NCBI GenBank assembly: GCA_000934665.2
Contig: JYFJ02000883.1
Span: 1-64,000 of the forward strand
Source: Catajapyx aquilonaris
Taxonomy: Eukaryota
Direction of reading: 5' to 3'
DNA length: 64,000 bases
Below are positions 1,663 through 63,991 of this stretch, in pieces; position 1 is the stretch's first letter; every line of letters begins with the position of its first letter. The translations under genes were made by a program, and so were the position numbers. The notes below the pieces were generated by a model. That model was not told the origin of the DNA. It saw nothing but the letters and a program-made list of their open reading frames with translations, and did no database searches.

Positions 1663-11678
<10,016 letters not shown>

Positions 11679-33674: not shown

Positions 33675-36600
33675 TTAGACGTATGACATAGTCCTGACTG
33701 TGACGTCGTTAGGATTGATCCCAGTTCGAGCCAGGTTCTTCATGACTGGAAATGACCTGGGCGGAACAGTGGGCTGGGAATACACCGGATTGTGTTGTGT
33801 CCTCGCGTCTTTTGGTTGGTCATAGTCGTTCATGACTATGGGATTACGGATAGGCAAAGTTCTGTCCCGGTTGCGCGTGTAGCTCCGGAAAGTGGAAGTG
33901 GACGGATGTGACCTGAGGGAGTGCTCTGACTTCCAATCGGGGTATTTCTGACCGCTGCTGTCGCTTATGTCGTCTACGTCGTCTGATGACTCGTCGCTGA
34001 TGCTTGGTCTTGTCTGAGGCGATGTAATGTTGGTGTGCTGCGGCAACATTGCGACCATTGGGTTGATCTGCGCTACTCTGGGAGGAGTCACGGGTCTCGG
34101 ACGGTTGCGTCGTAACTCCACTGAGTTGTTCACTGGCGACACGACAGGGACAGACGGTGTCGCCGATGTCTGCAAATAGGACAGTCACTTAACAAAAGTA
34201 TGTATGAAAACACCGATGACATACCTGTGAATACTCAGGCAGCAAGTCCGGCTCCCCTTGCCGTTGCCGTTCCGCGTGTATGATCTGACCATTGTCTGAC
34301 ACAATCCGGAGCGAACCGTCGTCGTCCTGCAGATACGCGTTGCTGATGTACACATTGTATCGAGGTTTGTCCCTGGTCTCTTTGGCCCTCTTCATACAGT
34401 AGCAGAAGATGAGAATGATGACCAGAAGAAGGGTCAGAAAAGCACCGACTCCGCCGATTATGTAGCATATCTGCGCTAACGTCAACGACACTCCGACAGG
34501 CTTCGACGTCGTGGTGTTGAACACAATCGGAATCGCGGTAGTGGTTGTGGTCGTCGTGGTTGTAGTAAAGTTATATTTTCTGGGACTGGGCCTGGTATAG
34601 TTGCTTGTGTTGCGTGTGGTGACCCACGAGGTATGGAAAGGCGTGGTGCTGGGATACTCCAGAAGGAATGTCACCGTGTTGGATATCGGTGACTGGTTCG
34701 ATGCTTCGTCCAGGCTTCGAACACACACATAGTATATCAATCCTACACCGTTGGAAGCGGCTCGTTCTATCTGAAGGGATATGTTCTGGAGTCGAGCATG
34801 AGGCGTGTATTCGGCAACCAGTGGCCCTTTTAGTGGACACTGGGACGTGCTCAGGTTACGAGGTTCTGATCCGCACAGTACGGTGTACTTGAAAGCTGCC
34901 GACATTATAAAATAACATGATCATAAAAATGTTCATAAAGAATCAAAATAATATATGACTTGAGACAAGGAAAATAACTATAGGTTATGTCTGCACATAG
35001 ACACGGGTCTCGGATTTTTCGCCCCACCGTTTCGCCCCGGCGTATTGCCCCCCGTGACAATTTACACACGAGGCCAGGTCACTTCTCTAGAAATGCCCAG
35101 CGGAATGCTTCAAAGTGGAATATGTCACGGGGCCAATATTCCGGGGGCGAACCGGCGGGGGCGAAAAGTCCGGACCCCCATAGACACACCAGGCAACCTT
35201 ATTGAAAGTTTGCATATCAGGCCTTGACTATAACCCTTGTTTTTCCTAGAGCAATATATTTAGACTTGGCGTACCAAAACCGGTTGTGTAGTTTCCACCG
35301 GGTATGCTCCATTCAAGTTGCAGATTCTTCCTTGGAAAGCTGGTGATTCTGAGGTCCGCCACTCGACTCGGAGGGTACACATCGGTGTCTATGTCTTTGT
35401 CCAGATAGAAAGTTAATCCGGGGCTGAGTATTTCGAAATCTGGGATCCGCCTTGTCTCGTTGAACTGGACTCTGCTGCCACAACATGGGGTCCACATGTC
35501 TGAAACTACGAATACCTCACTTTACATACGGATACTCCAATTTGACGTGACTGTAGCGTACACTTGCCATTTTTTTGTTCGGAGCGTATCGCAGATGTCA
35601 TAAAGGCGGCTCTGTCCTTACTAGTCGCCTTAATCTGAACGTAGTAGTACCCGCGGTAATTAAACTTGTCAAAATACGCGGAGTAAATTCCGTCTCCAGC
35701 AGTAATGTCTGGAACTGATAACATAGAGGTTGCAATTAAAAATAATTGTCCCACAATAAATGGGTATGACAAACCTCCGCTGCCATCGTCAATCAACAGA
35801 ATCTCAGCTGTCCGAACGTGTTCATTTGGACGAAACACGAGGGCTTCGACAGTGACGTTGGACAAGGGACGTCCGAGTCTGTCCACCACTTCGGCGTACA
35901 AGATGGTCGGAAACTGAAGAGGATTGGCTGGACTTGTGGCGGACTTCTTGTCAGTCCAACCGCGAACTGTGATCACAGGAATCTTTCGGTAGTCCATTCC
36001 AGTCAGCTCGTATCTCAAATCGAAAAACACTCCTTGATTTCGAATGTCACCACCTACATTCATGTCATATGTCCAATTTCCAGCCTGTAACACGATTGAT
36101 ATAATTATGATTAGCCCTATTCTGCTACACATAAAATAAATATTGTCCAATGAGCACTTGCAAAAGTAACCGCAAATTGGTGTGAACTTTAGAGAATCAG
36201 TTGTGCAGGTCGGTTACAAGCGCCTGCTGCATTTTATGATTTGTCATAAAATTTAATCTGCCCGTTTGTTTCCTGCGCATTGTTCACTCTCACAGCCACA
36301 AGGGTTATTGTAAGATTGCAATATTATTTCAGGTGGAAATGGTGTCAATAATTTCACATAGAAATGGGTTCCAGTCTGAATTCTTTTGGCTTGTTTGTGT
36401 TGTCATAAATATAGCTATACAGTTTCTAATGTTTAAATCCAAACTCTAGATCAATTCTCCTTAGGCATATCTAAAAACATAACAATAAAATCAGCATAGG
36501 GCTTACCTGAAATGCACACTTGCTGTCAATCAAACCAGTGTAACACATGGTAATGTTTTCCACAAACACGGGCGTAATGATGCAATTATCATGTAACGGA

Positions 36601-39140
36601 GTGTGCAAATGTAACACAAGAAGGTCGTATATTGCAAACAAAAAGAAGGACCTTCCGATCGAAGGTATGTAGAGTGTCCCTTCAGTTTCGTATACAACAA
36701 TATTTTTCTCCTGAAACATAACAAACATTTCAAAAGGTTTGTCATTTGCGTTTTTAAAGAAATGGTATTACCTTAATAGTAAAACGGTGCTCCACTTTGT
36801 TAACAACATCTATCAATAAATCGGCCATAAAAATTGCAGATTTGAGGCTTGCATTTGGAATCGCGTAGAAATCGCCAACTTCTGCCAGAACCAGAAGAGA
36901 CGAATCCGCGCTTTGAAAAGTGATAGTCCTAATTGGACTTCCTTGCTCCTGAATATCATCTTTGACCTGCCTTAAAACTAGTATGTCCGGAAATGACACA
37001 GTCACAAGAATCAACTGCCACTGCAGGAACAAATCCTCCTGAAACCAATGTTTCAATTGAATTCAGTTTGCAAAATAAAATAATACTGGTTCACTGCCAC
37101 AGTCTAGTGCTCAAAATTGTTACAAGTAATTGTTTGAAGAATAACACTAGAGAACAAAATTGAACTTTTCAGCGCATATGAATGCATTATAGAAACAGCT
37201 AAAATTGTTCATGTGCCAAAATCATTGTTGACTAGTGTAATTTCTGGGGTAAACAAATCGTTGAGCCGAAAACTTAGACAGTGCAGCATATAGTGACGTA
37301 CCGTACCGAATTAATAATATTTTTGGCTGTTTTCCAACCACAATGAGATAGAGAGCAGTTGGACAATTCAATATGCTGCTTGTCGTACTCAGTGATGGCT
37401 AAATATAAGTTTTGGAGCCGATTTTTGTTGGTCATCGGAACTGGACTCAGCAATAAGTTTGATCCGTTCTGGCCGAATATTACAACAGACACGAAGGACT
37501 TGTCTGATATGTAGAGTGAAAATTCCATCAGAGCGATCTTGATGTCTCTGTAGTAATCCTGGAAAAAGCGAAGAACACAAAAAATGGTATTATTCACTGA
37601 TCAATACACACATTTTTATACAACTTGCCTTCATGGCGTCGGACACTTCTAGCATCAGTATGTATCCTGGATCTCTCTGCTGGACCACCCTAAAATCAGG
37701 TGCTGTTGATTGCATTTCAGGGATCGGGTTTTGTCTCTTCCAGGAGAAGTCTGAATGGCTCTGGACAACTTCCCATGTGCTGCTTCCCATGCACAAAAGA
37801 TTGTGTTTTGTAGGAGCCTCAGGTACGTGCGTATCGTTGGTACAGAAATGGATTATCTGAGAGAGATTAAAACTAATCGAATCAGGTCATCACACTTGAC
37901 AACAAAGTTCACTCACTGATGGTAATGTTGACGGAAGAAGAAGAGACGAGGTTGCGTTTTCAAAATAATTTGGGATCATCAACTCCTGGGCTCTGTCACA
38001 TGTGCTTTGACACAAAAAATGGAAGAGTGAGTTACAATTTTTGGCACAAAAATGGTCGCTGTACTTACATGTTAGAAACAGCATTTGAGACGTCCATGCA
38101 ACTCGTGAGAGAGCATTCTCTGTACGGATTGTTGTACATTGGTGGGTAAAATCCATCTCCGTCAAAGCCTATTTCGTCATAAACTCCGTAGCGATGTTTG
38201 GCCCATTCGTGAACCAAAATTTTCCCTGCTCATAAAAATGTGTCATCAGCTCATAAGCATATTTTGATCGAAAATTCCACTCATTAAATGCCCAATTATT
38301 ATTTACTTTGAAAAATCTCATTGGCATCCCTGCTGGTCGCCTAAACTGAATGAACCAATTGCATTCAACTGTGGCCAATAATTGTTACTTTTTATTGACC
38401 GATTCTAATCAACTGACCATCAGGGGGTGGCAATGCCGTCTTTTAAAACTAAAGAGCCTTCAGCCATAATTGGCCTTTTTTTTCGTCACGTAGTATAATG
38501 TGCCCTAGAAAGCACCTAACACGTCGAATAATGGGTTAGCTCACATAAACCGGTTTCAGAGCCAGTGTTTCAAAAACATCTATACCATTGTTAGACGTGT
38601 TGTGTACCTTCCAGGATGTGTCTATATAGCTGTGGACATTATGACCATCAGTATGCTAAACTCACCAAGTTGTGAAGCTGAACGTTTCGTGTTCGTGAAC
38701 AATCCTAGTGGCATGTACACTCCGTCTGCTGGTTCTCCGCACAGCCCGTACTGCTTTGTCCATGGCCAGTTTGAAGCCATTGGATTTCCATTGACCAACT
38801 TGAAGTCAGCGTCGTCCCAGTTGGTCCAAAACTCAGGGTACTCGAAGGTGGTGTTGCAAGTCTCACCTTGCTTCCAGGACGGAGGCACCAGGATGGTTAT
38901 GGTCTCGAAAGACGCGTGTCCTCCAGTTGACTTGAGGAGAAGACTGGACGAGTTGGAAAACGCATCTTTCAGAACTTGCAAGAGTGACTCGCAGTCCTTT
39001 GGCGTTATGGTGTCTATCTCCTCAGCGATGGCCACCACCACTCGTTGGTACCTGTCGTCCTGCAGAGGCGCGTGTTTGGCCAGAATAACCACACACAATA
39101 AGCACCACCACAGCAACAGTGTCCAGTTAAGTCGCATCAT
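33675..39140 (-). CDS. CLCA-family protein, copy 3, complete multi-exon gene with TM helix and cytoplasmic tail
   Basis: First exon ~39140-38666 has a signal peptide, YQRVVVAIAEE and PWTKQYGLCGEPA. The next exon has GKILVHEWAKHRYGVYDE. vWA start is YILMLEVSDAM. Later motifs are LLIDDGSG/PDITAGDGIYSAYF, CCGS and DVYPPSRVADL. TM is ICYIIGGVGAFLTLLLVIILIFCYCM and the protein ends RTMSYV-stop. AATAAA on the minus strand at 33515-33520. Confidence 0.9.
35005..35178. mobile_element. Palindromic GC-rich MITE (Mutator/MULE-like) with a 9-bp target-site duplication, in a CLCA copy 3 intron
   Basis: ~55-bp imperfect TIRs (GGGTCTCGGATTTTTCGCCCC...CGTGACA / TGTCACGG...GGGGCGAAAAGTCCGGACCCC), flanked by the direct repeat CATAGACAC at 34996-35004 and 35179-35187. 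Confidence 0.85.
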
Positions 39141-39783
39141 GATGAGCGATGACCCACTCGAAAAATTCCTTCAGAGTCATTAGTCTATACTGGCAGTATT
39201 TCAGACAACAGCAGGCAGCTGCTATGGAAGCCCGAACATACCCTGGCTTTGCCGTAATAGTATTTTCGTTGTAGTCCTTATCGGAGTCCAGCCTATAAAA
39301 CGACCGCGTAGAATCGCTCTTACATTCGCCATGCCATAGATAAGACTTGTTTGAATAAAGAGGCCTTGCGTCAAATATTGTGCTTCGAGACTTTTTAGGT
39401 CTATTCACGACCATGCTGTGCTGCCATTGTAGTGATTTAACTTCAATCGACTTTTCTAGAAAAGTCTGAAAGTATATGGCCCGATGTATAACATGTAAAT
39501 CAATGGAAATAGATGGTCCCAATATTTCACACCTTGTGATAAGAAGTAATTATTATACTGTCTTAGACGAAAGTGTCACATGTAATTTTCCGGCCGGACG
39601 GTTCTTCACAAACGTCAATAACATTTTGACAGTAATAAGCAGTTGCATACTGTAATTTTCTTCAAAATGACAAAAGTCCAACTTGGTATCTGCGATACAA
39701 GGTTTTGTTTTCAGCACGCTATCCATGCTATAAAACAGCGCAAAAAAATATATTCGGAAAATGCAAATCTTATGTCAGTAACA

Positions 39784-42427
39784 ATGGGTCGGCTGGCCAC
39801 TCTTGTGGCTCTATTCACTTGCTCGTCGGCGACAATCATCAGCAGCGGTTATCAAAGATGGCATATGGACAAAAGGCAGTCAGACTGTGTGTATCGGGAG
39901 GTTAAGGTGTTTTCCAAGGTCGCCTGCGGTGCACAATGCGACATAACCAATTGCTCCGGATTCAATTACCGCCAGAATGATTACGAAGCCGATTGTCAGT
40001 TGCTCAGCTGTAACCAGGATTTTGACACCCTGGTATTCGCAAAAGGATGGGAATTGTTTGTGCAAGTTAAAGGTGAGATTTGTTTGCTGTACTTAATTTC
40101 GCACCATTCCATTACTATAGCCTTATTATTTTTATATGTTATTTTATGCATTTGTAGCCTATGTTTTTTTTTGTTATAGTCGAGGCCCGCACCAGTTTGA
40201 AAGAAACCAAGCCCATGAGCAATGGCGTTTTGTTAGAAACGCCAGCAGAATTTGATGCAACAGACGACCTTCAATGCCCAGGTCCCATCCAGCCCAACAA
40301 TGTTACCCCATCAGAAACATTGAGCAATAATTCGCCAACATCGACAGCTCGACATGTCACGACAGTGTCCCCCAAAATTACTGATCAAAAAGCACCGATT
40401 GCAACTCAAGGCCCAACAGGTGCCATACGGACCGAAACTTCTTATCAGGGAACAACGTACACAGGTATATTCAAGGCAACGACTGCGGTATCATCCACCG
40501 GTGCAAACATTAGTCCAAATGTGTCAACAACTGCGGAAACCGAATTGGCACATGTGACTGCAACCACTGCAGAAACTACTCTTAGGCCAAGCACCACAGT
40601 AGTTTCTCCGGTTGATGAATCTGAAACCACTTATCGGGTCACTGATTCTGCGAGTAGCCATACGACTCGGTCGACTGTTACGTCTACTGAACCCAATCCA
40701 AATGAACTAACTTCAGGCGGTGATACTTCAAATGATGCTGCTCATGATGGCACAACTACAGCTGAAATTAAAATCACAAGTAGGCCCACTACAATTCGGG
40801 ACCGACCAGCATCCAAAACTACAACTGATTCATCCGTCACAAATGTACCGCTTAAAACAGCTTCAACTGTGTCGAGAAAAGAGTCCACCAGTGTCAGAAG
40901 TACGTGGCAAAGCACTTTTCTCACCACGGTTCGGAAAATGAGTGATCAAACTACTCAGGTTCCAATCAAACGCACGCAAAATTCAGAGTTGTCGTCTAAA
41001 GTCACGGCGAGTGCGTCAACTGTAATTTCGACAACAGAGAGGACAGGTAAGACCAGCAGTTTGAAGAGCACGAAATCAACCAAATCATCACTCTCGACAA
41101 ATCCATTGACGACCCCATCATCAACAATGCATACAATCTCGTCAATTTCTTCCCAATTGTCAACGAAAACTACAAGATCAGAGGGTCCAACAACTGTCCG
41201 CTTACAAAGTACGGGTACTTCTTCACCAAAGCCTGACAATACCACAACAGCTCGTATGTCAACGCAGCCTAGAAGTTCTTCAACTACTGCTGCAATAAAG
41301 ACCACCAACTCTTCAACAGTGGCGTCGACAGCCACTACTACTTTCCAAACTAATTCAAGTCCCACAACTGCGTCGACTTTAAGTATTTTAACAACTCTTA
41401 CTAATAATGCTACAACAATAGCAACAACACAAAACGCGACATCTTCGTCAACGACAATGTTCCCAACAACATCTGCAACAACTAAAACAAGTCAGCAGTC
41501 AACAAAAACCAATTCGCTGCCTACAACAACTACTGGAAATCCTTCAACACCAATTACGTCTACAACGTCTACGTCTACAAGTACTCAAACTACTGCAGCT
41601 ACATCCACAAGGCCTTCAAGTACAGCACAGACTTCAACAGCTACAAACACTCCAAGTACAACCAGCACTCAAACCACAACAACGTCAACAACAACAACGC
41701 CTACAACAACCATAACTTCGACTCAGTCTACAACACCTACAACATCAACCAAGGCGCCAACCACAACAACGCAGTCAACCACAAGTCCTTCAACTAGCAA
41801 ACCGACAACAAGCACTTCAACAACTCAAACCACAACAACTTCAGCAACAACCACGCCTACGACGACCACCACAACTGAGACTACTACCTCAAAGACAACT
41901 GTAACACCAAGTCCAAGCACAACAACAGACACATCATCCACTCTCACAACCCCAACAACCGAAGCGACCACCAGCAATAGCAATAGTGACAACAATGAGC
42001 CCAGGAGTCGGACTCTTCCTCTCAAGTCGTACCTAATATTTGACGAGTCAAAGAGCAGGAACGATTCAGAGCTAGTTTGCGCAAGTCACAATAACTCTAC
42101 AATAGTTCAGGTGGAAAACCAGGCTGCTCTAGAGGAACTCTATGAGGTCATTCAAGACACTCCTGGAGACGAGTATTGGACAGCTCTCTACAAGAGGAAG
42201 AACGGAACAGTTTGCAATATGAATGGTAATGTAGCCACAATAATTAGTTTCACATTTTAATAATGAAATTTTGTGTTTAATCCGCAGGTATTTGCCCGAG
42301 TGACATTGAAAAACCGGCATTTTCGCTAATGGGTCGCTGCGGTTCGGCCGTAAGCGGAGAAAATCGCAGTAAATGGGGATTGGCTTCATGTGATTCGCAA
42401 AAGCATATAATATGTCAGATTAGATAA
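39784..42427 (+). CDS. Secreted PAN/Apple-like + Ser/Thr-rich mucin stalk + C-type lectin-like domain protein (~824 aa)
   Basis: Exons 39784-40072, 40180-42225 and 42288-42427 join in frame. A signal peptide precedes a PAN-like SKVACGAQC...CSGFNY...CQL segment and a ~600-aa T/S-rich tract. The CTL-like end reads SYLIFDESKS..C..EYWTAL...RCGSAV..KWGLASCDSQKHIICQ-IR-stop. No TM segment seen. Confidence 0.8.
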
Positions 42428-44250: not shown

Positions 44251-44354
44251 CCTTGTTCAAACTGAAGCGGAGATTTGACATCCACTGATTATGAATGCCA
44301 TATCTCACTTCCTGGTTCCGATCAAGCAATCCGAGGCACTTGCGAGGCACGCGC
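44251..44354 (+). pseudogene. Relic exon of a third serine-protease paralog
   Basis: CACTGATTATG..CCATATCTCACTTCCTGGTTCCGATCAAGCAATCCGAGGCACTTG matches exon 5 and the following intron start of the downstream proteases (TATCTCACTTCCTGGCTCAGACCAACAAGTCGACGGTACTTG). No flanking exons found. Confidence 0.7.
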
Positions 44355-44783: not shown

Positions 44784-46150
<1,367 letters not shown>

Positions 46151-47084: not shown

Positions 47085-48610
<1,526 letters not shown>

Positions 48611-50780
48611 CTTATTCAATAATGAATCTTCATACGCAATAAAATATTTTTTTGGGTAAAAGGAAAACTGGGTGTTTTAGTCCTTACTTCACATTTTCTT
48701 ATCAACCGCGATGGGTAGGCCTACACACACACACATGTGTGGATGGGCTTGTGTGCAATCACAGATGAGGTTGTCAACGTCACTCTTAATAGCGCCATGA
48801 TAAGAAAAAACATGACGTTACCATTACTGTCAACCCTTCCCGGAAATACACACATCCAACAGTCACGACTATGACAACATTCACTTCGGAGCCATATGCC
48901 ACTAAACATTTGGTTAAAAATTATTATGTAAATATTGCATAATTATCAGCAGTAATATGCTGGACAATACAAATAAATCGGCAATTCATTTAGGAATTGT
49001 CTGTAATTATTGCAAACTTCTATAATAGGATAAATGATACAAAATTCGGCTTTCTGATTGGATTGTCATTATCCGAAAGTTAATTATTGTGAGGAAAAAA
49101 TATCTTAACACCTTATTCCGCTTCAGATACCTTCCAATTTCCATTTCAAGCCGCATTATCGAGGTGCTATAATTAGCTCTTCAAACGAGAGCATGAATTT
49201 GCATCGCAATCAAACCCACCCACAAAATGAGATTAAACCTATCTCGCTCAATTGAAAATCTGGTTAAGGGCCCGGTACGGAAATAAATCCCAAGAACAAA
49301 GGAGAACAATAGGGTGCGTCACCATCTAAGAATCCTCGAGATTACTGGTAATGAGGCCACAGCCATAAAAACGCATGAAAAAAACCACCACCCCCTCTAT
49401 TCATATACCTATACGTAACACTGCAAGCCTCAGATTTGGCCGGGATCATAAATAAGTAATAGCTCCTTGAAAAGGCTCAGTTTTGCAGCACCCGCACGCA
49501 TCGTAAGTATACCTTTAAAGTCTCCCTTATAAGTTTTACCAGAAAAAAAGAAGAAGTTGCAATCGCATGGACCAGAAATTGAATTTTTTCTTCCATCACA
49601 AGTTTAAAGGCAATAAACCCAATCGGGTGTTGTGTAGGAATAAATAACTCTAATCGAGTGCGCGCTTCATTGTCAAGGGCTTTTCTCGCATCTATTTTTT
49701 AGGATGCTGGCGAGACCTGATAAGTATGGCTGGTTAAACCCAAAACCACTTGTGGCAGGGCCATTGATTGGAAGCAAAATCGAATCTCCTCTGTCTCTTT
49801 TCCGGGGCTTACTGACCCGTACACCTTGCCTTCAAACCTCATTCCGGACACCCTTTTTTTTTGTGCGTCACCCGGATTATATTTGGTAGGGATCCGGCCC
49901 TCCTCCAGTATATATACCAGGTACTTTGCCATTGGGCTGGTCAGGTTCCTCAGGTTCTTCGGATCGTCTGGAACTCATCGTCTCAACAGCCTTTTAGGTA
50001 AGAAAGCATTGTTGTGTACAAATAGAGTCCAACCAACGCTTGCTATAAAACAATGTGCATGGGTAGTCAAAAAGTCTCGTTTCATATAAATTAAAATACT
50101 ATCCTTTATATGGGACGGGACTTTCCGGGTACTCTGCACTTATGCACCGATTGAATTACTTCGAGCAACTGTGTGTGGTATGTGCATGTTTGTTTTGCAG
50201 TGTAATTTTTTTATAAAAGTTTAGTTTCGATGGGCCAAGTCATCATAAGGAAACGATCTGGTCGCTAGAGTGAACAATAACATGTGCAAATAATATCACG
50301 TGAGAATTACGCTACAATCAGTACAAAACACCCTGTAATGTAATTCTCAACAATGGCCAGAATTATTGGTAATTTATTGGCGATTAAGCTCATTATTGGT
50401 TTTGCAAGTGTGCTACTTGCAATTATGTTAAATTTTTGCAGTTTTTGATTGCAGTTTTTTTATTGTTTGTTATCAGTGTTGAAAATAAAAGCCTTTTGTT
50501 CAATGCGTTCGTTTTTTAATGCTTTCGAAGTGTTCGTGTGAGCTGTAAAAAAAATTATGAGTTGGCGCAACCAGCAGCATGCAAAAGATAAGTAACGAAC
50601 AATGTGTGTCAACAAAAGTTTTCGGACAATGCTATCTTGGGGAGTTGTATTACATATACAATAATCATGACGATTTGTACTGCTTATGCTGATGGTAATT
50701 GTCCGAATCTTTTTTTTTGCATTTCTGCAATATTGTTATATGCTGCACAATTCTGTACATGAACGAATTTTCAGACAACA

Positions 50781-52772
50781 ATGCAGCCAGCATCATCCAG
50801 AACATGGCTTTGGCTATTGGCCCTCCTTTGGCCAACAATCGTCTTGTGCTTCGGAAAGGAACACTGCGCCAACAATGATGTCGGAAGCTGCTTCCACACT
50901 GAACAGTAAGTTGTCACAACCTGTGTTTAATCATGCTGCTCATTAACTTTGAAATTTTCAGAATCACGCCTAAAGTCGAATCCGAATACTCTGAGAACTT
51001 CAAACCACCGACAGCTGTCCGCTTCGATCGTCGATTAGACTCTCGTCGAGTGCTGGCCGATCGTCGTACCGTCGATGACAGGAGACTGTCAGGAGACCGA
51101 CGAACTGTCGATGACAATCGGCGGGTGTCTCTCGAAAGACGTGAAGTTGACAGCAGCAGACGAATGGACACGAGAAGACTGACGATACAGAGACGTTCAG
51201 TTGACGACAGACGAATGTCGGCAGAACGACGATCAGTCGACGACCGACGGTTGTCTACCCGATCAATTGACGACAGACGAGTAGATGCACGAATGTCAGC
51301 AGAACGACGATCAGATACTCAGCGACTAAGCGAACGTCGATCTATCGGTGTCAGAGAAGAATCTCGACGCGTCACAGCACGTGACGTTGACAGCAGACGA
51401 ATGATGTCCAATGAGCGACGACAAGTTGACGACAGACGCCTTGAGACTCGACGATTGTCAGCAGAACGACGTGATTATGAGAGCAGCAGGCGATTGGCTG
51501 AACGTCGTTTGGTTGACGGCAGACGTGAAGACACTCGACGGGTGACAGCCGATCGACGTTCTGTTGACGACAGACGAGCAGATGCCAGACGTGAAGACAC
51601 TCGACGAGTATCGGCCGAACGACGATCTGTCGATGATAGGCGAGCAGATATGAGGTCGGCTGAACGACGTTCACTAGACCGACGTGCAGAAACACGACGA
51701 TTGACATCCGAGAGACGAGCCATTGACCAAAGACGTGAAGACACTCGACGTGTATCAGCCGAACGACGATCTGTTGACGACAGGAGAGAAGACGCACGAT
51801 TGACAGAACGACGAGCTGAAACTCGACGACTGACAGCAGAGAGACGATCCGTCGACGACAGACGAGAAGTAGTAAGGTCAGCAGAAAGGCACTCACTCGA
51901 TCGACGTGAGGACACACGACGAGTATCAGCTGAACGACGTGCACTTGAGAAACGAGCGGAAACTCGACGACTGACAGCTGAACGACGATCTGTTGACGAC
52001 AGACGAGCAGATGCCAGAAGGGAAGACACTCGACGAGTATCTGCTGAACGCAGGTCTGTTGACGACAGACGAGCAGATATGAGGTCGGCTGAACGACGTT
52101 CACTAGACCGACGTGCTGAAACTCGACGACTAACGGTTGACCAAAGACGTGAGGACACACGACGTGTGACTGCCGAACGACATGATACAACCGATCGTCG
52201 TGAAGACACTCGACGACTTGAGAGCAGACGTCTGGACAGTCGCCGTCGTACAGGAGACACACGCATATCACGCATCGCCAATGACGTATCAACCCAGACC
52301 AGACTCGACAACAACCGACACGCATCACGTCGCACGGAAGAAACGCGTGCGGTCGCACGACACACCGAGAGCACAAGACTGGAAGCCAAATCACATCGGA
52401 CTGACTGGGATTCAATCAGAACCGTCGATGGAGACATGACCCAAATTATTGATTCAATGAAGAAATTGCCCGTAAGTAATAATTGCACAAGGCTTAAAAT
52501 ATTGTTAATTTATATAATTTGACCAAAGCGAACAATAACAACAATGAAACATTTTCTAGCTGATGACCACAATGTACGATACTCCTCTCAACAATCTGAT
52601 GGATAAGGTTCCTCAAGAGTAAGTGTATTCGCAATAATTCGGTTTGTGCAAATTTAACACCAATTTTTCCAACTTTTTTTAAAGCAAATCCTGGGCCAAC
52701 TTCTTCGCCAGCAGCTTATGCGGAGGGGTAGCAATATACATGATGGTTTCGAGAAATTCCAAGACTCTGTGA
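50781..52772 (+). CDS. Uncharacterised signal-peptide protein (~593 aa) with a long Arg-Arg/Asp/Glu repeat domain and a short hydrophobic C-terminal segment
   Basis: Exons 50781-50905, 50962-52471, 52560-52618 and 52685-52772 join in frame (1782 nt) at GT-AG sites. N-terminus is MQPASSRTWLWLLALLWPTIVLCFG and C-terminus is WANFFASSLCGGVAIYMMVSRNSKTL-stop. Confidence 0.75.
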
Positions 52773-53234
52773 TGTGTCTGACTCAAATCTATTCGTTGTC
52801 TCATGTACTAGTTATAGTGTAGCCTTGATCAGAATTATGAAAATTATTTTTCTAACCAAAATTTAACTTTGGAAACTCGAATAATTGGCAATGATGAGTG
52901 GCATATAGTGATTCCCCAATGTTAGCTATAGTTTAGTGGATATTATAATAATTATTGGATGTCACTTCCTGCCGGGGATGGGCAGATGAAGTCTTAACCG
53001 TACATTCCTCAATGTGATGTGTAGGCTAATTATTTTTAAAAAAAGGCTTACTTCAAGGCGCACTGTGATCTCTGTAATTTAATGTCATAAGCACAGTTGA
53101 AAATAAAATTATTATGTTGTCAATCATACAACAGGAGGTTATACACATTATTTTATCATCCCGTGGTATGCAATATTAACAATGAATCATTTTTCTAGCT
53201 TGTTCTCTCATTAATTCATATTACACTAATTACA

Positions 53235-53902
53235 GTAAGAATTGGATCACATTTTCTCGCCAACAATTGAACCCAACCAGCTGTGCCTTAAGCCAGCCCG
53301 GTTTCGGGTGACGAGCAACAATTCTCCTTTTCTTTTCAGGTTTGTCTTTTGATTTGGTTTTTTTGGCGGGGTGGTACGAGACCGCCCCTTTCCTACAAAA
53401 ATTATTCTGTCCAATTATTTCTACAATAATGGTCAGAAGAAGATGTCAGATCACTCAGATGTGATATCCACGAAATAAGAGACCTGATCAGTGATCATGT
53501 AAGAGCATAACAAAGATAGAAGCAATGACTTTGGGTTTTGGCATGCCAGTGTCATTTACTACCTGATTAAACGTGGGTTTTGGTCATTGTTCCTTAATCA
53601 ATAATGTTACTGAAAACATTCCAGTAAGAAATTACACCATAATTACTTGCAATGGTGGTGATTTAATTGCTTTTATGCTGTAAAAAGGGGAGTCTGCATG
53701 TGCTGGCGCCATCTCTGGGTCCATGTCTGAACAAAGAAAATATTGCCGCCACCTTTGATTACACCAGACGCAATAAAGCGATAAATTTATTGTTTTTTGG
53801 TTGTTTTTTAAATAGAAAGATTGGCTAGTAAACTTTCTTACAACAGCTTAAAAAAGTATTGAAGACTGTAAATTGCTAGGTTACTTAGATTGAGTATCAT
53901 AC
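53235..53902 (+). repeat. ~650-bp dispersed repeat, copy 1
   Basis: Long near-identical alignment with 55475-56115, e.g. ATCACATTTTCTCGCCAACAATTGAACCCAACCAG and GGGGAGTCTGCATGTGCTGGCGCCATCTCTGGGTCCATGTCTGAAC. Confidence 0.92.
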
Positions 53903-55370: not shown

Positions 55371-55474
55371 AAAAAATGTCCCAAGATGTCAGGGCAAAAT
55401 CTCAAGACATCATATGAAGTCCGTAGTCGTCAGAGGTTAATTTAGTGGCGTAGAAATATATTGCACACTTTGTT

Positions 55475-56115
55475 GTAAGAATTGTATCACATTTTCTCGC
55501 CAACAATTGAACCCAACCAGCCTTGGCCTACGCCAGGCCGGTTTTGGGTGACGAGCAACAATGCTCATTTTTTTTCGGGTTTGTCTTTTGATTTGGTTTT
55601 TTGGCGGGGTGGTACGAGACCGCCCCTTTCCTACAAAAATTATCCTGACCAGTTTGCATTCATAACAAATGGTCAGAAGATGATGTCATATGTGAAATGC
55701 ACGAAATAACAGACCTGATCATGTAAGAGCATAACCAAGATAGAAGCAATGACTTTGGGTTTTGGCATGCCCATGTCATTTACTACCTGATGAAACGTGG
55801 GTTTTGGTCATTGTTCCTTAATCAGTAATGTTACTGAAAACATTCCAGTAAGAAATTATACCATAATTACTTAGACTGGTGGTGATTAATTGCTTTTATG
55901 TTGTAAAAAGGGGAGTCTGCATGTGCTGGCGCCATCTCTGGGTCCATGTCTGAACAAAGAAAATATTGCCGCCACCTTTGATTACACCAGACGCAATGAA
56001 GCGATAAATTGTACTGTTTCATAGAAAGATTGACTAGTAAACTTTCTTACAACAGCCCAAAAAAGTAGGTTTTGAAGACTGTAAATTGCTAGGTTACTTA
56101 TATTGAGTATCATAC
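55475..56115 (+). repeat. ~650-bp dispersed repeat, copy 2
   Basis: Direct-orientation duplicate of 53235-53902 with small indels. Confidence 0.92.
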
Positions 56116-57035: not shown

Positions 57036-59735
57036 TCATATTTGAACTAGCTCTTGAATCGTGCCAATGATTGCATCCAACTTCAGCCTGTATGCTGCGA
57101 GCTCTCTGGTTTTCTGATGAACTGCCTCCTCCATCTCCTGGTTTGGACCTTTGCTCCCTCGATTGTGGAACGCCCGCACCAGCAACTGCAGCTGCTCTTC
57201 CCTGAACATAAACCTGGAATCCAGATTATCCAAGTGTTCCTGGATTTTCTCCACCGCTTTGGCACCCTGGAAAAAGGATAGTCGCATTCCAATGACACTG
57301 TGTGCGGAGGCCAAACCAGCTGAACTTACTGGAGTCATCAGTCGCTTCAAATCCTGCACCCTTTTTCTCAGATCTGCATTTGCTTTGTGTAACATCTGGT
57401 TTTCCCCTTTCACAGTCCGAGCCTTTTCTCTTCGCGCTTCAATTCTGAAAAGGGTGGCATAGTTCTTGTAGACATGGTAGCATAATGGTAATTAAGGGCT
57501 GCACACATCAGTACCATAGCTCCAAAATTCTGCTTCTAACAGCCTGAGAAACGAGACCTCCAACAAGAAGTGTCTCCTGAAACAGGCGCAGGACAATAAG
57601 CTTACCCACGAAGCTTCTTCTCAAGCGCAGCAAGTTCTTCCTTGTACTTTTCCAAGGTATCCTCCAACTCTGCTGTCCTGGTGGCTGAGAACCTAGCCGC
57701 ATACTCTGCCTTCAGTTTCAGCAATTCACTTTCGTACTTCTCTTGGAGGGACGTCCCGTACTTCAGGTCCACCCAAAAGAGGGAGAAAAAGTGATCAACA
57801 CTCGTAAAAACACCTAGGATATTTCACTTAAAAAGGAAGGAAACGCAAAATGATACCTTCTTGGCAGCAATCTCGCCAATGGTCTTCTTCTCTTCCTCAA
57901 GGCGAGCTATTCTGTCGTAATGTTGGTCCTTCATGAGCTGCATCTTGCCTGCCAACACCTTCAGCTGGTGCTGCAGGGCAGCCACCTTCTCGTCTGTGGT
58001 TCCCAGTCCGTCAATCTTGGTCATGTCTGCAATTTTCATATTGGACCGATGAGAACTACTTATAAAAAACGACTTGCAACTACAGCTGTAGCTTCAGAAC
58101 CCAAGCGCTGGCATCACAATGGCAGTATAATGGCTTTCAACAATTTACTAATGAGTAAAGGGTAGCGATGAAGACTGTACTTCCAGTAGATATTAGAGTA
58201 GGCTGTTACTGCCTTTAAAAAAAAAAAATCCTGACCTTTGACTATCTCCTGCAGCCTGGTGTGCTCCTTCTGCAGCTTGTTGTGAGACTTCTTGATCACT
58301 TCCAGCTCCTTCTTGAGCAGGTGAATCTCTTTTTCCTTGCTGAGGATGTCCTGCTTCTGCTTTCGGATGGTGCTGAGGAGGGATGGGTCCGCTCTGCTCT
58401 TGGGCAGCCCAGGCAGCGGTCCTGCCTTCCTTACCAGGCATCCAGCACTCCCAGACTTGGAGTGATGCTTCGACAACCGTGTGGGAGATGGACATGGCGA
58501 AGGCGTTGGGGCAGGAGAAGGTATCTGAGTTTCCTTGGCGAAACTAGTGACATCCATAACCTTGCCCTCCCTCTTTTCCTGCAAGATATTTTTTAAATGG
58601 TTTTGACAAAATGTGTGAAACGTCTGGTTGCATCATCGGCAGTTATCTCCTGAGCATGCAGTTTTCGGAGCTGCTTAATCAAAAGTGAAGCCTATCTTCC
58701 TTCACAGCATCGCCAACCTATGCAAGAATACAGACCTTGTATCTCTGAAACTCCTCCTGCAGGTCTCTGTACTGCTCTTTGGTCTTATCGTCATGTTCGT
58801 CCAGCATGTTCTCCAGCTCCCGGACTCGGGACTCCAGGTACATGGTCCTGCTGGACTTGAACTTGTTGCTGGAATCCGAAGACTCAGTCCCATAAATGAT
58901 GGGACCGTCTGGCGTCCTCTTGCACAGCTCCGACTCCAGTTTCTTCACCTTGCTCTGCAGGAACTCCACCTTCTTGTTGTATTCGGCCAGCTGGCTGTAG
59001 CTGCCTGTCCCGCTGCCCAACCTAGAGCTGGTGGGCGTCTTCTTCTTGAGATTCCGAATCTCCACCTCCTTCAGCTTGGCATCCTGGCGCAGCTTGTTGA
59101 CCTCCACGTTGAGGTCACTGTTGATCTTGGTCCAGTGGTCCCTGCTGCTGTTCAACTCACGGCGGGTGGTCTCGATGAGCTTGTCCTTCTCCCTCAGCAT
59201 GCATCGCAGTTTTCCTTCACTCCCCTGCAGGAGAGAGGTGCCCACATTCCATCAGTAAGTCATGCAGCAGTCACTCAGTGAGACTTGGTAAATTCAAGGT
59301 CAATGTACCAGATCGCACCTAACATCAGTAACAGAAATTGTTGGATTTCTCAGCGGGAGAAAACCGTTCCTACCAATACGAATTCATTCCCACACGTACC
59401 ATGCGAAGTCCGTCCAGAACCGCCTTGGTTTCGGAGAGCTCCTTGTTCCTCTCCCCAAGAACTTCCTTATGTCTGCTGACAGTTTGCTTCTCTTGGTCCA
59501 GGGCTTCCATGAGAGTGCCAACCTTCTCTTCCAACCTTACTATGGACGCTTTGAATTCGTCAGAAGCTTCGTTCTTCATGCTGAGTTGGCTCTGGAGGCA
59601 CCTTATCAGGGAGTCGCTCTCTGAGACGGAGGTGGGTAGAAATTGCTTCACCCCTGGTTGGGTTCGGATAGTTAGAGAACGCTTGTAGGCTGCTCTCTCC
59701 TTGAAGAGTAGCTCATCTTTCATCTTTACTTCCTC
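57036..59735 (-). CDS. CEP162: Coiled-coil centrosomal protein, CEP162 (QN1/KIAA1009)-like; 5' end uncertain
   Basis: About 7 coiled-coil exons. YLESRVRELENMLDEHDDKTKEQYRDLQEEFQRYK and the C-terminal TP..K..IQEHLDNLDSRFMFREEQLQ...KTRELAAYRLKLDAIIGTIQEL match my recollection of conserved CEP162 blocks. AATAAA on the minus strand at 56915-56920. Confidence 0.7.
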
Positions 59736-63100: not shown

Positions 63101-63991
63101 TTGTGGTAATCACATTGTTATCACTAGTAACAAGACTGAATCATGGTTAAGAATTGAATCCAGCTGCAGGAGCGTTCAGATTTTCTTTGAATTTCACTGG
63201 CTTGATTGTCCGTCTGTAACTGTACAGTCCCTTTGTAAGACTTGCATTACTGTAAGCAATCCCATGCACTGTAAACCATCAATCACAGTTAAGCTTAATC
63301 GCCTGACACTTTTCTCTCCTCCAGCCGCCGCCGCCTGTGGCGCAAGAACCGATCGAAGCACAAGAGCAGCCCGTTTGGCTTCCTGGATTGCTCCGGAGTG
63401 GACCTGAACCGCAACTGGGACATGCAATGGATGGTGATCGGCGCCTCGCAAGATCCCTGCTCAGACATCTACGCAGGACCCAGGCCATTCTCGGAACCAG
63501 AGACCAAGGCCACCTCCGAGTACATCGCCCAGAACGCCAACCAGATCAAGGTGTACGTCTCCCTGCACTCATACTCCCAATACATATTCGTGCCGTGGGG
63601 ATACACCAAGGAGCGGCCGAGGGACCACCCGGACATCTACGCCCTAGGGCTCAAAGCGCAGCAGGCACTTGAGAGGGTGCATGGTACCAAATATGTGGTT
63701 GGAAGTGCACCTGAGCTACTCTACTCAACAGGAGGTATTAGCATATTAAAAAAAAAGCACTGTGGGATAAAAGCAATGCCTTAAAACAATCCCCCCTTTT
63801 CAGGTGCGGCTGATGACTGGGTGAAGGCCAAGGCTGGCATCAAGTACACATTTACATACGAGCTGCGAGACAAGGGTCGCCACGGGTTCATCCTCCCCGC
63901 TAGCCAGATTGAGGCCACCGGGCAGGAGACCTGGGCTTCCATCAAGGCCATGGCAGACGAACTAGTCGCCAAGAGACTGAAGTTTGATTAG
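60192..63991 (+). CDS. Zinc carboxypeptidase M14A, carboxypeptidase B-like preproenzyme, complete
   Basis: Signal peptide and propeptide in exon 60192-60515. Then [35 protein letters not shown] (H69/E72), [32 protein letters not shown] (H196), GAADDW (Asp255, basic-residue specificity) and YELRD (E270). TAG at 63989-63991. Confidence 0.93.

What the first reader, a model, noticed from the sequence alone, without database searches (positions are those of the whole stretch)
50781..52772. Unrecognised secreted or anchored protein made of dozens of Arg-Arg-punctuated charged peptides
Seen: the long ORF becomes a four-exon gene with a clear signal peptide and two Cys near the mature N-terminus. 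About 450 aa follow in which RR recurs every 4-7 residues between acidic spacers (SVDD, EDT, VSAE, AET, SLD), with almost no Lys, Cys, Pro or aromatic residues in the repeat core. A short hydrophobic C-terminal segment ends the protein. RD/RE-rich polyampholytes are usually nuclear, so a secreted one is unusual. Inference: it is either a polyprotein cut at dibasic sites into many short acidic peptides, or an extracellular polyampholyte (coacervate, adhesive, cuticle or mineral matrix) with a TM or GPI anchor. I cannot assign a family.
Basis: partly seen in the sequence, partly recalled or inferred. Interest (0 to 1): 0.8.

Follow-up and report, generated by a model that had tools for sequence, protein, structure and literature searches.

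The report
Secreted arginine-pair repeat protein, arthropod orphan
A real, spliced, apparently single-copy arthropod gene encodes a secreted or loosely membrane-tethered protein whose 440-residue core repeats arginine pairs between short acidic spacers, a charge pattern otherwise known from nuclear condensate proteins; no relative was found and its job is untested.

Summary
The gene is real. Four coding exons (50781-50905, 50962-52471, 52560-52618, 52685-52772) give 593 aa, and all three introns appear as GT..AG joints in spliced contigs of run X1. The host is an arthropod. The protein has a signal peptide, two Cys, a 439-aa core (33% Arg, 23% Asp/Glu, 64 RR against 36 in shuffles, no Pro, one Lys) and a weakly hydrophobic C-terminal segment. 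Corrections: the core is strongly basic (net +48, pI about 11.6), a GPI signal is unlikely, and 27 of 64 RR are followed by an aliphatic residue that disfavours convertase cutting. Internal duplicates are under purifying selection (dN/dS 0.08), spacers included. No homologue or paralogue was found. Best reading (0.4): a secretory-pathway scaffold that condenses through arginine, working like nuclear Arg-enriched mixed-charge domains or like a basic granin, while meeting the definition of neither. Rivals: selective polyprotein yielding nonapeptides with an internal RR (0.2), single-helix stalk (0.2), arginine store (0.07). Function is untested; one animal lineage, one expression data set.

The parts
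49703..49997 (+). Upstream non-coding exon (5' end uncertain; TATA-like box near 49909)
   Evidence: Joint 49998>50756 in one X1 contig, depth 2; a further GT..AG joint 49502>49703, not shown to belong to this gene; sequence
50781..50905 (+). Coding exon 1: ATG, signal peptide (residues 1-25, 50781-50855), Cys29 (50865-50867) and Cys37 (50889-50891)
   Evidence: Translation and hydropathy; Cys positions; donor seen spliced. Signal peptide judged by hand, no SignalP available
50906..50961 (+). Intron 1, 56 nt, GT..AG
   Evidence: Joint 50905>50962 in X1
50962..52471 (+). Coding exon 2: short acidic linker, RR core, C-terminal linker
   Evidence: covered by X1 contigs
51020..52336 (+). RR core, residues 62-500: 64 RR, 33% Arg, 23% Asp/Glu, net +48, kappa about 0.03
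51523..51705 (+). First copy of an internal 183-nt duplication
   Evidence: 87% DNA identity to the second copy; 19 synonymous and 5 non-synonymous differences, dN/dS 0.08
51952..52134 (+). Second copy of the internal duplication
52472..52559 (+). Intron 2, 88 nt, GT..AG
   Evidence: Joint 52471>52560 in X1
52560..52618 (+). Coding exon 3 (linker)
52619..52684 (+). Intron 3, 66 nt, GT..AG
   Evidence: Joint 52618>52685 in X1
52685..52772 (+). Coding exon 4: weakly hydrophobic segment (residues 568-586, 52692-52748, with Cys577), 7-residue polar/basic tail, TGA
52773..53107 (+). 3' UTR and AATAAA signal (53102-53107)
   Evidence: X1 contig ends at 53095; AATAAA at 53102

Best explanation
A secretory-pathway scaffold protein that condenses through arginine. 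The signal peptide takes it into the ER (inferred from sequence). The core offers about 64 RR 'stickers', each partly neutralised by the next acidic spacer, with a net positive surplus; it would self-associate and bind polyanions (nucleotides, sulfated glycans, acidic proteins) into a granule core, gel or surface coat (inferred by analogy). The weak C-terminal hydrophobic helix tethers it to the granule or plasma membrane, and the Cys29-Cys37 pair forms a loop or cross-link (inferred). Cutting at some RR sites could later shed or dissolve the assembly (speculative). Shown: the gene, its splicing, its composition, its charge pattern and selection on the repeat. Not shown: localisation, condensation, partners, tissue.
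For: Arg over Lys 146:1 and NCPR +0.11; in R-MCD experiments Lys substitution abolishes condensation, net positive charge strengthens it, and the effect depends on length (bioRxiv 10.1101/771592). Charges are far better mixed than in shuffles (kappa 0.032 against 0.146 +/- 0.023; opposite charges at lag 2: 115 against 66, like charges 4 against 71), so the pattern is selected. dN/dS 0.08 between duplicates, p 7e-8; non-Arg codons alone 11 synonymous against 4 non-synonymous, p 2e-5. The layout (signal peptide, N-terminal Cys pair, charged body, many dibasic sites) parallels granins, which condense in the secretory pathway (PMC9526250, PMC8201018). A secreted Lys/Arg-rich cohesive protein exists in flatworm glue (PMC8621496).
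Against: No 60-aa window meets the published MCD definition: 0 of 380, best FCR 0.63 against 0.7. A well-mixed alternating R/D peptide did not phase-separate in another study (PMC9324279 abstract). The core has no Pro and 4 Gly, and AlphaFold2 draws a long helix, which is not what a disordered coacervate former usually looks like. Letter-for-letter conservation of spacers is more than a purely compositional role needs. Granins are acidic; this is basic. No homologue, tissue or localisation data.
Confidence: 0.4

Rival explanations
1. A polyprotein cut selectively by prohormone convertases. RR followed by S, E or A is cut; RR followed by V, L or M is not. This releases about ten related nonapeptides with an internal RR, six SVDD and an N-terminal disulfide-loop fragment.
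For: Signal peptide and 64 dibasic sites. The sites fall in two classes: 19 of 21 RR preceded by T/S are followed by an aliphatic residue, against 8 of 43 of the others (Fisher p 4e-8). Ten matches to the nonapeptide pattern. Spacers are under purifying selection.
Against: Arthropod precursors usually use KR (PMC6585902); here 1 KR. One amidation Gly in 64; no RX[KR]R furin site. Many predicted products are 3-4 residues or unique. A C-terminal anchor is unusual for a precursor (own knowledge). The two-class statistic is inflated because the units are duplicates of each other.
Confidence: 0.2
2. A type I membrane protein whose core is a solvated single alpha-helix of up to about 66 nm, a stalk that holds the small disulfide head away from the cell or binds polyanions along its length.
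For: AlphaFold2 on exon 2 alone gives helices 26-133 and 167-474, mean pLDDT 70, blocks of 79-89 over residues 181-400. No Pro, 4 Gly. Opposite charges at i+3 enriched, 100 against 66. No hydrophobic stripe at helical angles (z 0.6-0.7), so not a coiled coil.
Against: No excess at i+4 (64 against 66; acid-to-base only 14). Asp exceeds Glu and S/T/V are abundant, all poor helix formers (recalled scale). With a 7-row repeat alignment only 1 of 5 models exceeded pLDDT 57. The longest SAH named in PMC10335832 is 90 aa. Single-sequence AlphaFold2 tends to draw charged repeats as helices (own knowledge). The TM segment is marginal.
Confidence: 0.2
3. An arginine/nitrogen store, or a sacrificial substrate for Arg-specific proteases, a ribosomal analogue of cyanophycin.
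For: 2.04 N atoms per residue in the core; protease and carboxypeptidase genes lie in the same window.
Against: Spacer sequence is conserved. Single locus. The neighbouring proteases have Gly where trypsins have the S1 Asp (numbering recalled). Neighbourhood is no evidence of function in an animal genome.
Confidence: 0.07
4. A cationic defence protein that, intact or in pieces, precipitates microbial polyanions.
For: Net +45 in the mature chain; secreted cationic peptides can kill by condensation (PMC10028949).
Against: The positive charge is dispersed and locally neutralised; predicted fragments are neutral or acidic; no amphipathic pattern.
Confidence: 0.06

Closest known systems
Arginine-enriched mixed-charge domains (R-MCD: U1-70K, CPSF6, FIP1L1, NELF-E; fungal SPA-5), bioRxiv 10.1101/771592
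   Same: Long, Arg not Lys, Asp-rich, well-mixed charges, net positive
   Different: Lower charge density (0.56; best window 0.63 against 0.7); RR doublets with S/T/V/L/A spacers, not RD/RE dipeptides; signal peptide and C-terminal hydrophobic segment, so not nuclear or cytosolic; no homology
Granins (chromogranin A and B), PMC8201018, PMC9526250
   Same: Signal peptide, Cys pair near the N-terminus, charged low-complexity body, many dibasic sites
   Different: Basic (pI 11.3) instead of highly acidic; RR only; regular 5-6 residue period; hydrophobic C-terminus; no Pfam or sequence match
Multi-copy arthropod neuropeptide precursors (for example orcokinin B), PMC6585902, PMC9552230
   Same: Signal peptide and repeated units flanked by basic residues
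   Different: Almost no KR, no amidation Gly, units of 3-5 residues, 27 of 64 sites with aliphatic P1', C-terminal hydrophobic segment
Single alpha-helix (ER/K) domains, PMC10335832; trichohyalin (recalled)
   Same: Charged, Pro-free, i+3 ion pairs, predicted long helix without hydrophobic stripe
   Different: Asp over Glu, no Lys, period about 5.5, no i+4 excess, extracellular, far longer
Macrostomum adhesion protein 1 (Mlig-ap1), PMC8621496
   Same: Secreted, repetitive, strongly basic, cohesive role
   Different: Gly/Arg/Lys-rich, 5407 aa, with lectin, vWD and EGF domains; none of these here

Membership tests
R-MCD (definition in 10.1101/771592) | At least 60 aa with fraction of charged residues of 0.7 or more and +/- ratio 1:0.7-1.3 | tested here: not met
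   0 of 380 windows; best FCR 0.633; 0 of 380 with S-x-E serines counted as phosphorylated; 58 of 380 only if every Ser is counted (definition)
R-MCD (definition in 10.1101/771592) | Arg strongly over Lys, net positive | tested here: met
   R 146, K 1, NCPR +0.11
R-MCD (definition in 10.1101/771592) | Condenses in vitro; nuclear speckle or cytosolic location | not testable with these tools
   The signal peptide argues against a nuclear location; condensation needs an experiment
Granins | Highly acidic | tested here: not met
   pI 11.3, net +46; feature list from PMC8201018
Granins | Multiple dibasic sites | tested here: met
   64 RR
Granins | Homologous N-terminal disulfide loop or family match | tested here: inconclusive
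   Two Cys eight residues apart, but no Pfam family for exon 1, exon 2 or exon 4
Granins | Calcium binding and aggregation at low pH | not testable with these tools
   Needs protein
Arthropod neuropeptide polyprotein | Signal peptide | tested here: met
   Hydropathy and small residues at -3/-1, judged by hand
Arthropod neuropeptide polyprotein | Cleavage sites usually KR, without aliphatic P1' | tested here: not met
   1 KR; 27 of 64 RR with aliphatic P1'; rule from PMC6585902 and PMC9552230 passages. 36 RR remain formally cleavable
Arthropod neuropeptide polyprotein | Repeated conserved paracopies | tested here: inconclusive
   10 nonapeptide matches and 6 free SVDD under selective cutting; 1 amidation Gly in 64
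Arthropod neuropeptide polyprotein | Mature peptides seen by mass spectrometry | not testable with these tools
   No peptidomics data
Single alpha-helix (SAH) domain | Opposite charges at i+3 and i+4 | tested here: inconclusive
   i+3 enriched (100 against 66), i+4 not (64 against 66); definition from PMC10335832
Single alpha-helix (SAH) domain | Helical, monomeric, non-cooperative melting by CD | not testable with these tools
   AlphaFold2 helix only
GPI-anchored protein | Small omega/omega+2 residues, spacer, then an uncharged hydrophobic C-terminus | tested here: inconclusive
   Manual reading with recalled rules: the chain ends in 7 polar/basic residues and no fitting omega site precedes the hydrophobic stretch; no predictor available
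Type I single-pass membrane protein | One 17-21 residue hydrophobic helix followed by basic residues | tested here: inconclusive
   KD 1.37 against 2.9-3.7 in neighbouring TM segments; summed Hessa-type value +2.2 for the best 17-mer (recalled scale); Arg and Lys follow it

The most novel reading that the evidence does not exclude
An arginine-driven mixed-charge condensation domain, known from nuclear speckles and fungal cytoplasmic plugs, put to work in the secretory pathway as a basic, membrane-tethered counterpart of granins, with two kinds of RR site (cuttable and protected) that let a convertase switch the condensate off or release defined nonapeptides.
Probability: 0.25. Interest if true: 0.72.

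Novelty: new variant of a known kind. Interest (0 to 1): 0.47.

Why it matters
Arg-enriched mixed-charge domains are studied as nuclear and cytosolic condensate formers, and known secretory-granule scaffolds are acidic. A selected, regular, basic version with a signal peptide would extend that chemistry to granules or the extracellular space, and offers a natural sequence for testing how Arg doublets and acidic spacers set the balance between helix, gel and cleavage. The sober view: invertebrate genomes hold many lineage-specific secreted low-complexity proteins, and without relatives or tissue data this may remain one more of them.

Tried and rejected
Homology, all blank. Pfam: 0 families for exon 1, exon 2, exon 4 and two terminal pieces of exon 2; exon 3 was too short to scan. 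Word-indexed protein search: none at E<=0.001 among 8000 scored candidates; 1 at E 4.2, a bacterial-type acetyltransferase-like protein with a DRR tail; none at E<=10 among longer proteins; shorter proteins were not searched there. phmmer over 1.84 billion representatives: 4 hits at E 8e-7 to 7e-4, all unrelated simple repeats (a fish RPA1-like model, two bacterial, one metagenome). Calibration: 3 of 3 decoys keeping RR positions with shuffled spacers scored 36-61 bits and fully shuffled decoys were not reported, so an equally regular relative would probably have shown, a looser one not. Atlas: no usable hit. PDB sequences: only E 0.04-0.9 helical matches, none for exons 1 and 4. Foldseek: none; VIA-align: generic long helices, Z up to 10 at rmsd above 10, uninformative. 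Metagenome contigs: 249 and 597 pattern matches, none confirmed. Own genome: only the gene itself; two weak hits were 15-nt tandem repeats; 9 of 10 matches to an RR[ST]VDDRR pattern lie in this gene, control 2. No RNA holder was listed by record. A self-association prediction was not obtained, so that question is open. Papers: searches listed nothing describing such a protein; most subscription journals are not held. I recall insect database entries with signal peptides and RR-rich bodies under automatic names such as 'zinc finger CCCH domain-containing protein 13-like'; no call confirmed this. Rejected: artefact or non-coding repeat (spliced, 19 of 24 differences at third positions); antisense ORFs at 51372-52415 and 51475-52509 (shadows of the repeat); coiled coil (no hydrophobic stripe).

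Full report
Observation. The window holds a 539-codon open frame at 50903-52522 on the + strand. Canonical splice sites give four coding exons, 50781-50905, 50962-52471, 52560-52618 and 52685-52772, 1782 nt and 593 aa (my first attempt had the exon 2 end off by one). One public run, X1, holds the stretch; its kind is not on record. Its contigs skip all three introns at exactly these places, each GT..AG, and also skip introns of the neighbouring protease gene, so they derive from spliced RNA. The joint from the signal-peptide exon to the repeat exon has 150 letters on its short side. No one contig spans the whole gene. A contig ends at 53095, just before AATAAA at 53102. A low-depth joint 49998>50756 shows a non-coding upstream exon. 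This is one data set and may be the same stock as the genome.

Host. The genome (286 Mb) has 66 matches to the Chitin_bind_4 cuticle domain, none in 14 control genomes, so it is an arthropod. Searches for PBP_GOBP and 7tm_6 gave one weak match each and do not place it further.

Anatomy. Residues 10-24 are hydrophobic (KD 2.3) and end in small residues suited to signal cleavage after about Gly25; this is a manual call. Cys29 and Cys37 lie in a 36-residue acidic head. The core, residues 62-500, is 33% Arg, 14% Asp, 10% Ser, 9% Glu, with one Lys, no Pro, no Cys, four Gly and two aromatics. It has 64 RR against 36.2 +/- 3.2 in 2000 shuffles, and one RRR against 11; 51 of 63 intervals are 5-7 residues; the charge period is 5.3-5.8. 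Net charge is +48, pI about 11.65, kappa 0.032 against 0.146 in shuffles (approximate implementation). A 67-residue linker follows, then a 19-residue segment of KD 1.37 and seven polar or basic residues. TM segments of two neighbouring genes score 3.74 and 2.92, so this anchor is marginal. It fits a GPI signal poorly by recalled rules.

Selection. A block chosen by the DNA repeat finder (51523-51705 against 51952-52134) differs by 19 synonymous and 5 non-synonymous changes, dN/dS 0.08, p 7e-8. The 38 non-Arg codons alone give 11 against 4, p 2e-5, and 19 of 24 differences are at third positions. Eight RRSVDD units have seven different DNA spellings. The protein sequence, spacers included, is what is conserved. 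The ratios came from blocks picked for amino-acid identity and are biased low; I rely.

Relatives. None found; the calls are listed under Tried and rejected. The most telling is phmmer over 1.84 billion representatives, a library that includes NCBI animal proteins: 4 hits, all unrelated repeats. Decoys with the same RR spacing and shuffled spacers scored 36-61 bits, at or above the weakest reported hit (35.3 bits). A looser relative, or one from an unannotated genome, would be missed. The spliced ends could only be searched exon by exon, and at 28-58 aa those searches are weak. In its own genome the gene appears single-copy.

Polyprotein reading. Arthropod precursors are usually cut at KR, and sites followed by an aliphatic residue are rarely cut (passages of PMC6585902; PMC9552230). 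Here there is one KR, no furin site, one Gly before an RR, and 27 of 64 RR are followed by L, V or M. Cutting at every RR is therefore unlikely. But the RR fall in two classes: those after Thr/Ser are nearly all followed by an aliphatic residue (19 of 21), the others mostly not (8 of 43). Selective cutting would give ten related nonapeptides and six SVDD. The classes are not independent, since the units are duplicates. I give this 0.2.

Helix reading. AlphaFold2 on exon 2 alone gives two long helices, mean pLDDT 70, pTM 0.25. With a seven-row alignment of repeats the best model is again a helix, but four of five models fall to pLDDT 51-57. Opposite charges are enriched at i+2, i+3 and i+7, not at i+4, and there is no hydrophobic stripe. 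SAH domains rely on i+3 and i+4 pairs, and the longest named in PMC10335832 is 90 aa (passages). Fold searches returned nothing or generic long helices. I give this 0.2.

Scaffold reading. In bioRxiv 10.1101/771592 (abstract, sections 6 and 10, passages) Arg/Asp mixed-charge chains condense in a length-dependent way, Lys cannot replace Arg, and net positive charge strengthens condensation. The core has these traits but fails the paper's definition: 0 of 380 windows reach a charged fraction of 0.7. PMC9324279 (abstract) found that an alternating R/D peptide did not phase-separate, which counts against. The layout resembles granins, which condense in the trans-Golgi and are tethered to membranes (passages of PMC9526250 and PMC8201018), but granins are acidic. 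It works like these, perhaps; it is a member of neither. I give this 0.4: every step beyond the sequence is inference. The scaffold and helix readings are not exclusive.

Literature. Searches listed no description of such a protein; I saw listings and abstract starts only. PMC8621496 and PMC10028949 were read as passages. Veenstra 2000 was not read; it is cited through the two papers above. No supplements were opened; supplementary tables of proteomics papers could hold a relative. Trichohyalin, cyanophycin, protease numbering and GPI rules are recalled.

Verdict. It is an expressed, selected orphan with an unusual secretory R-rich mixed-charge core. Lineage-specific secreted repeat proteins are common, and there is no family or tissue context, so interest is moderate, 0.47.

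Noticed in passing
window 50755-50756: An X1 contig has 5 extra letters behind 50755 that supply the AG acceptor used by the joint from the upstream exon; the window allele lacks them, so its 5' UTR must splice or read differently, perhaps at the AG just before 50775 (inference).
   Followed up: partly
window 50759-50878: An out-of-frame ATG 22 nt upstream of the main start opens a 39-codon frame overlapping the signal peptide; weaker context than the main ATG.
   Followed up: partly
window 49502-49703: A further GT..AG joint on the + strand (depth 9) upstream of the gene; a longer 5' UTR or a separate transcript.
   Followed up: no
window 44785-46150 and 47086-48610: Two tandem serine protease genes (Pfam Trypsin) read LDSGG and FDSGG where GDSGG is usual, with Gly at the trypsin S1 position (numbering recalled). 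A third partial copy lies near 44280. The second gene is spliced in X1.
   Followed up: partly
window 47916-48176: The joint listed as 47913>48175 reads as a GC..AG intron when shifted by two.
   Followed up: no
window 53218-53787 and 55458-56010: Two copies of a non-coding element of about 600 bp, 79-98% alike in blocks.
   Followed up: no
window 1663-2772 and 33675-39170 (minus strand): CLCA-like genes: Pfam CLCA N-terminal match at 38622-39167; two exons with a strong TM helix and cytosolic tail.
   Followed up: no
window 39622-42260 (+): A mucin-like Thr/Ser-rich frame of 700 codons, flanked by Cys-containing pieces that look PAN-like and lectin-like to me; no Pfam match.
   Followed up: no
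window 57036-59281 (minus strand): Coiled-coil gene whose C-terminus reminds me of CEP162 (recalled; only weak coiled-coil Pfam matches).
   Followed up: no
window 63299-63784 (+): Zinc carboxypeptidase exon, Peptidase_M14, E 2e-40.
   Followed up: no
L005:1459-1788 and L007:1442-1703: The same 15-nt tandem repeat at two unrelated loci, one apparently inside an ionotropic-receptor-like gene; the cause of two spurious protein hits.
   Followed up: partly
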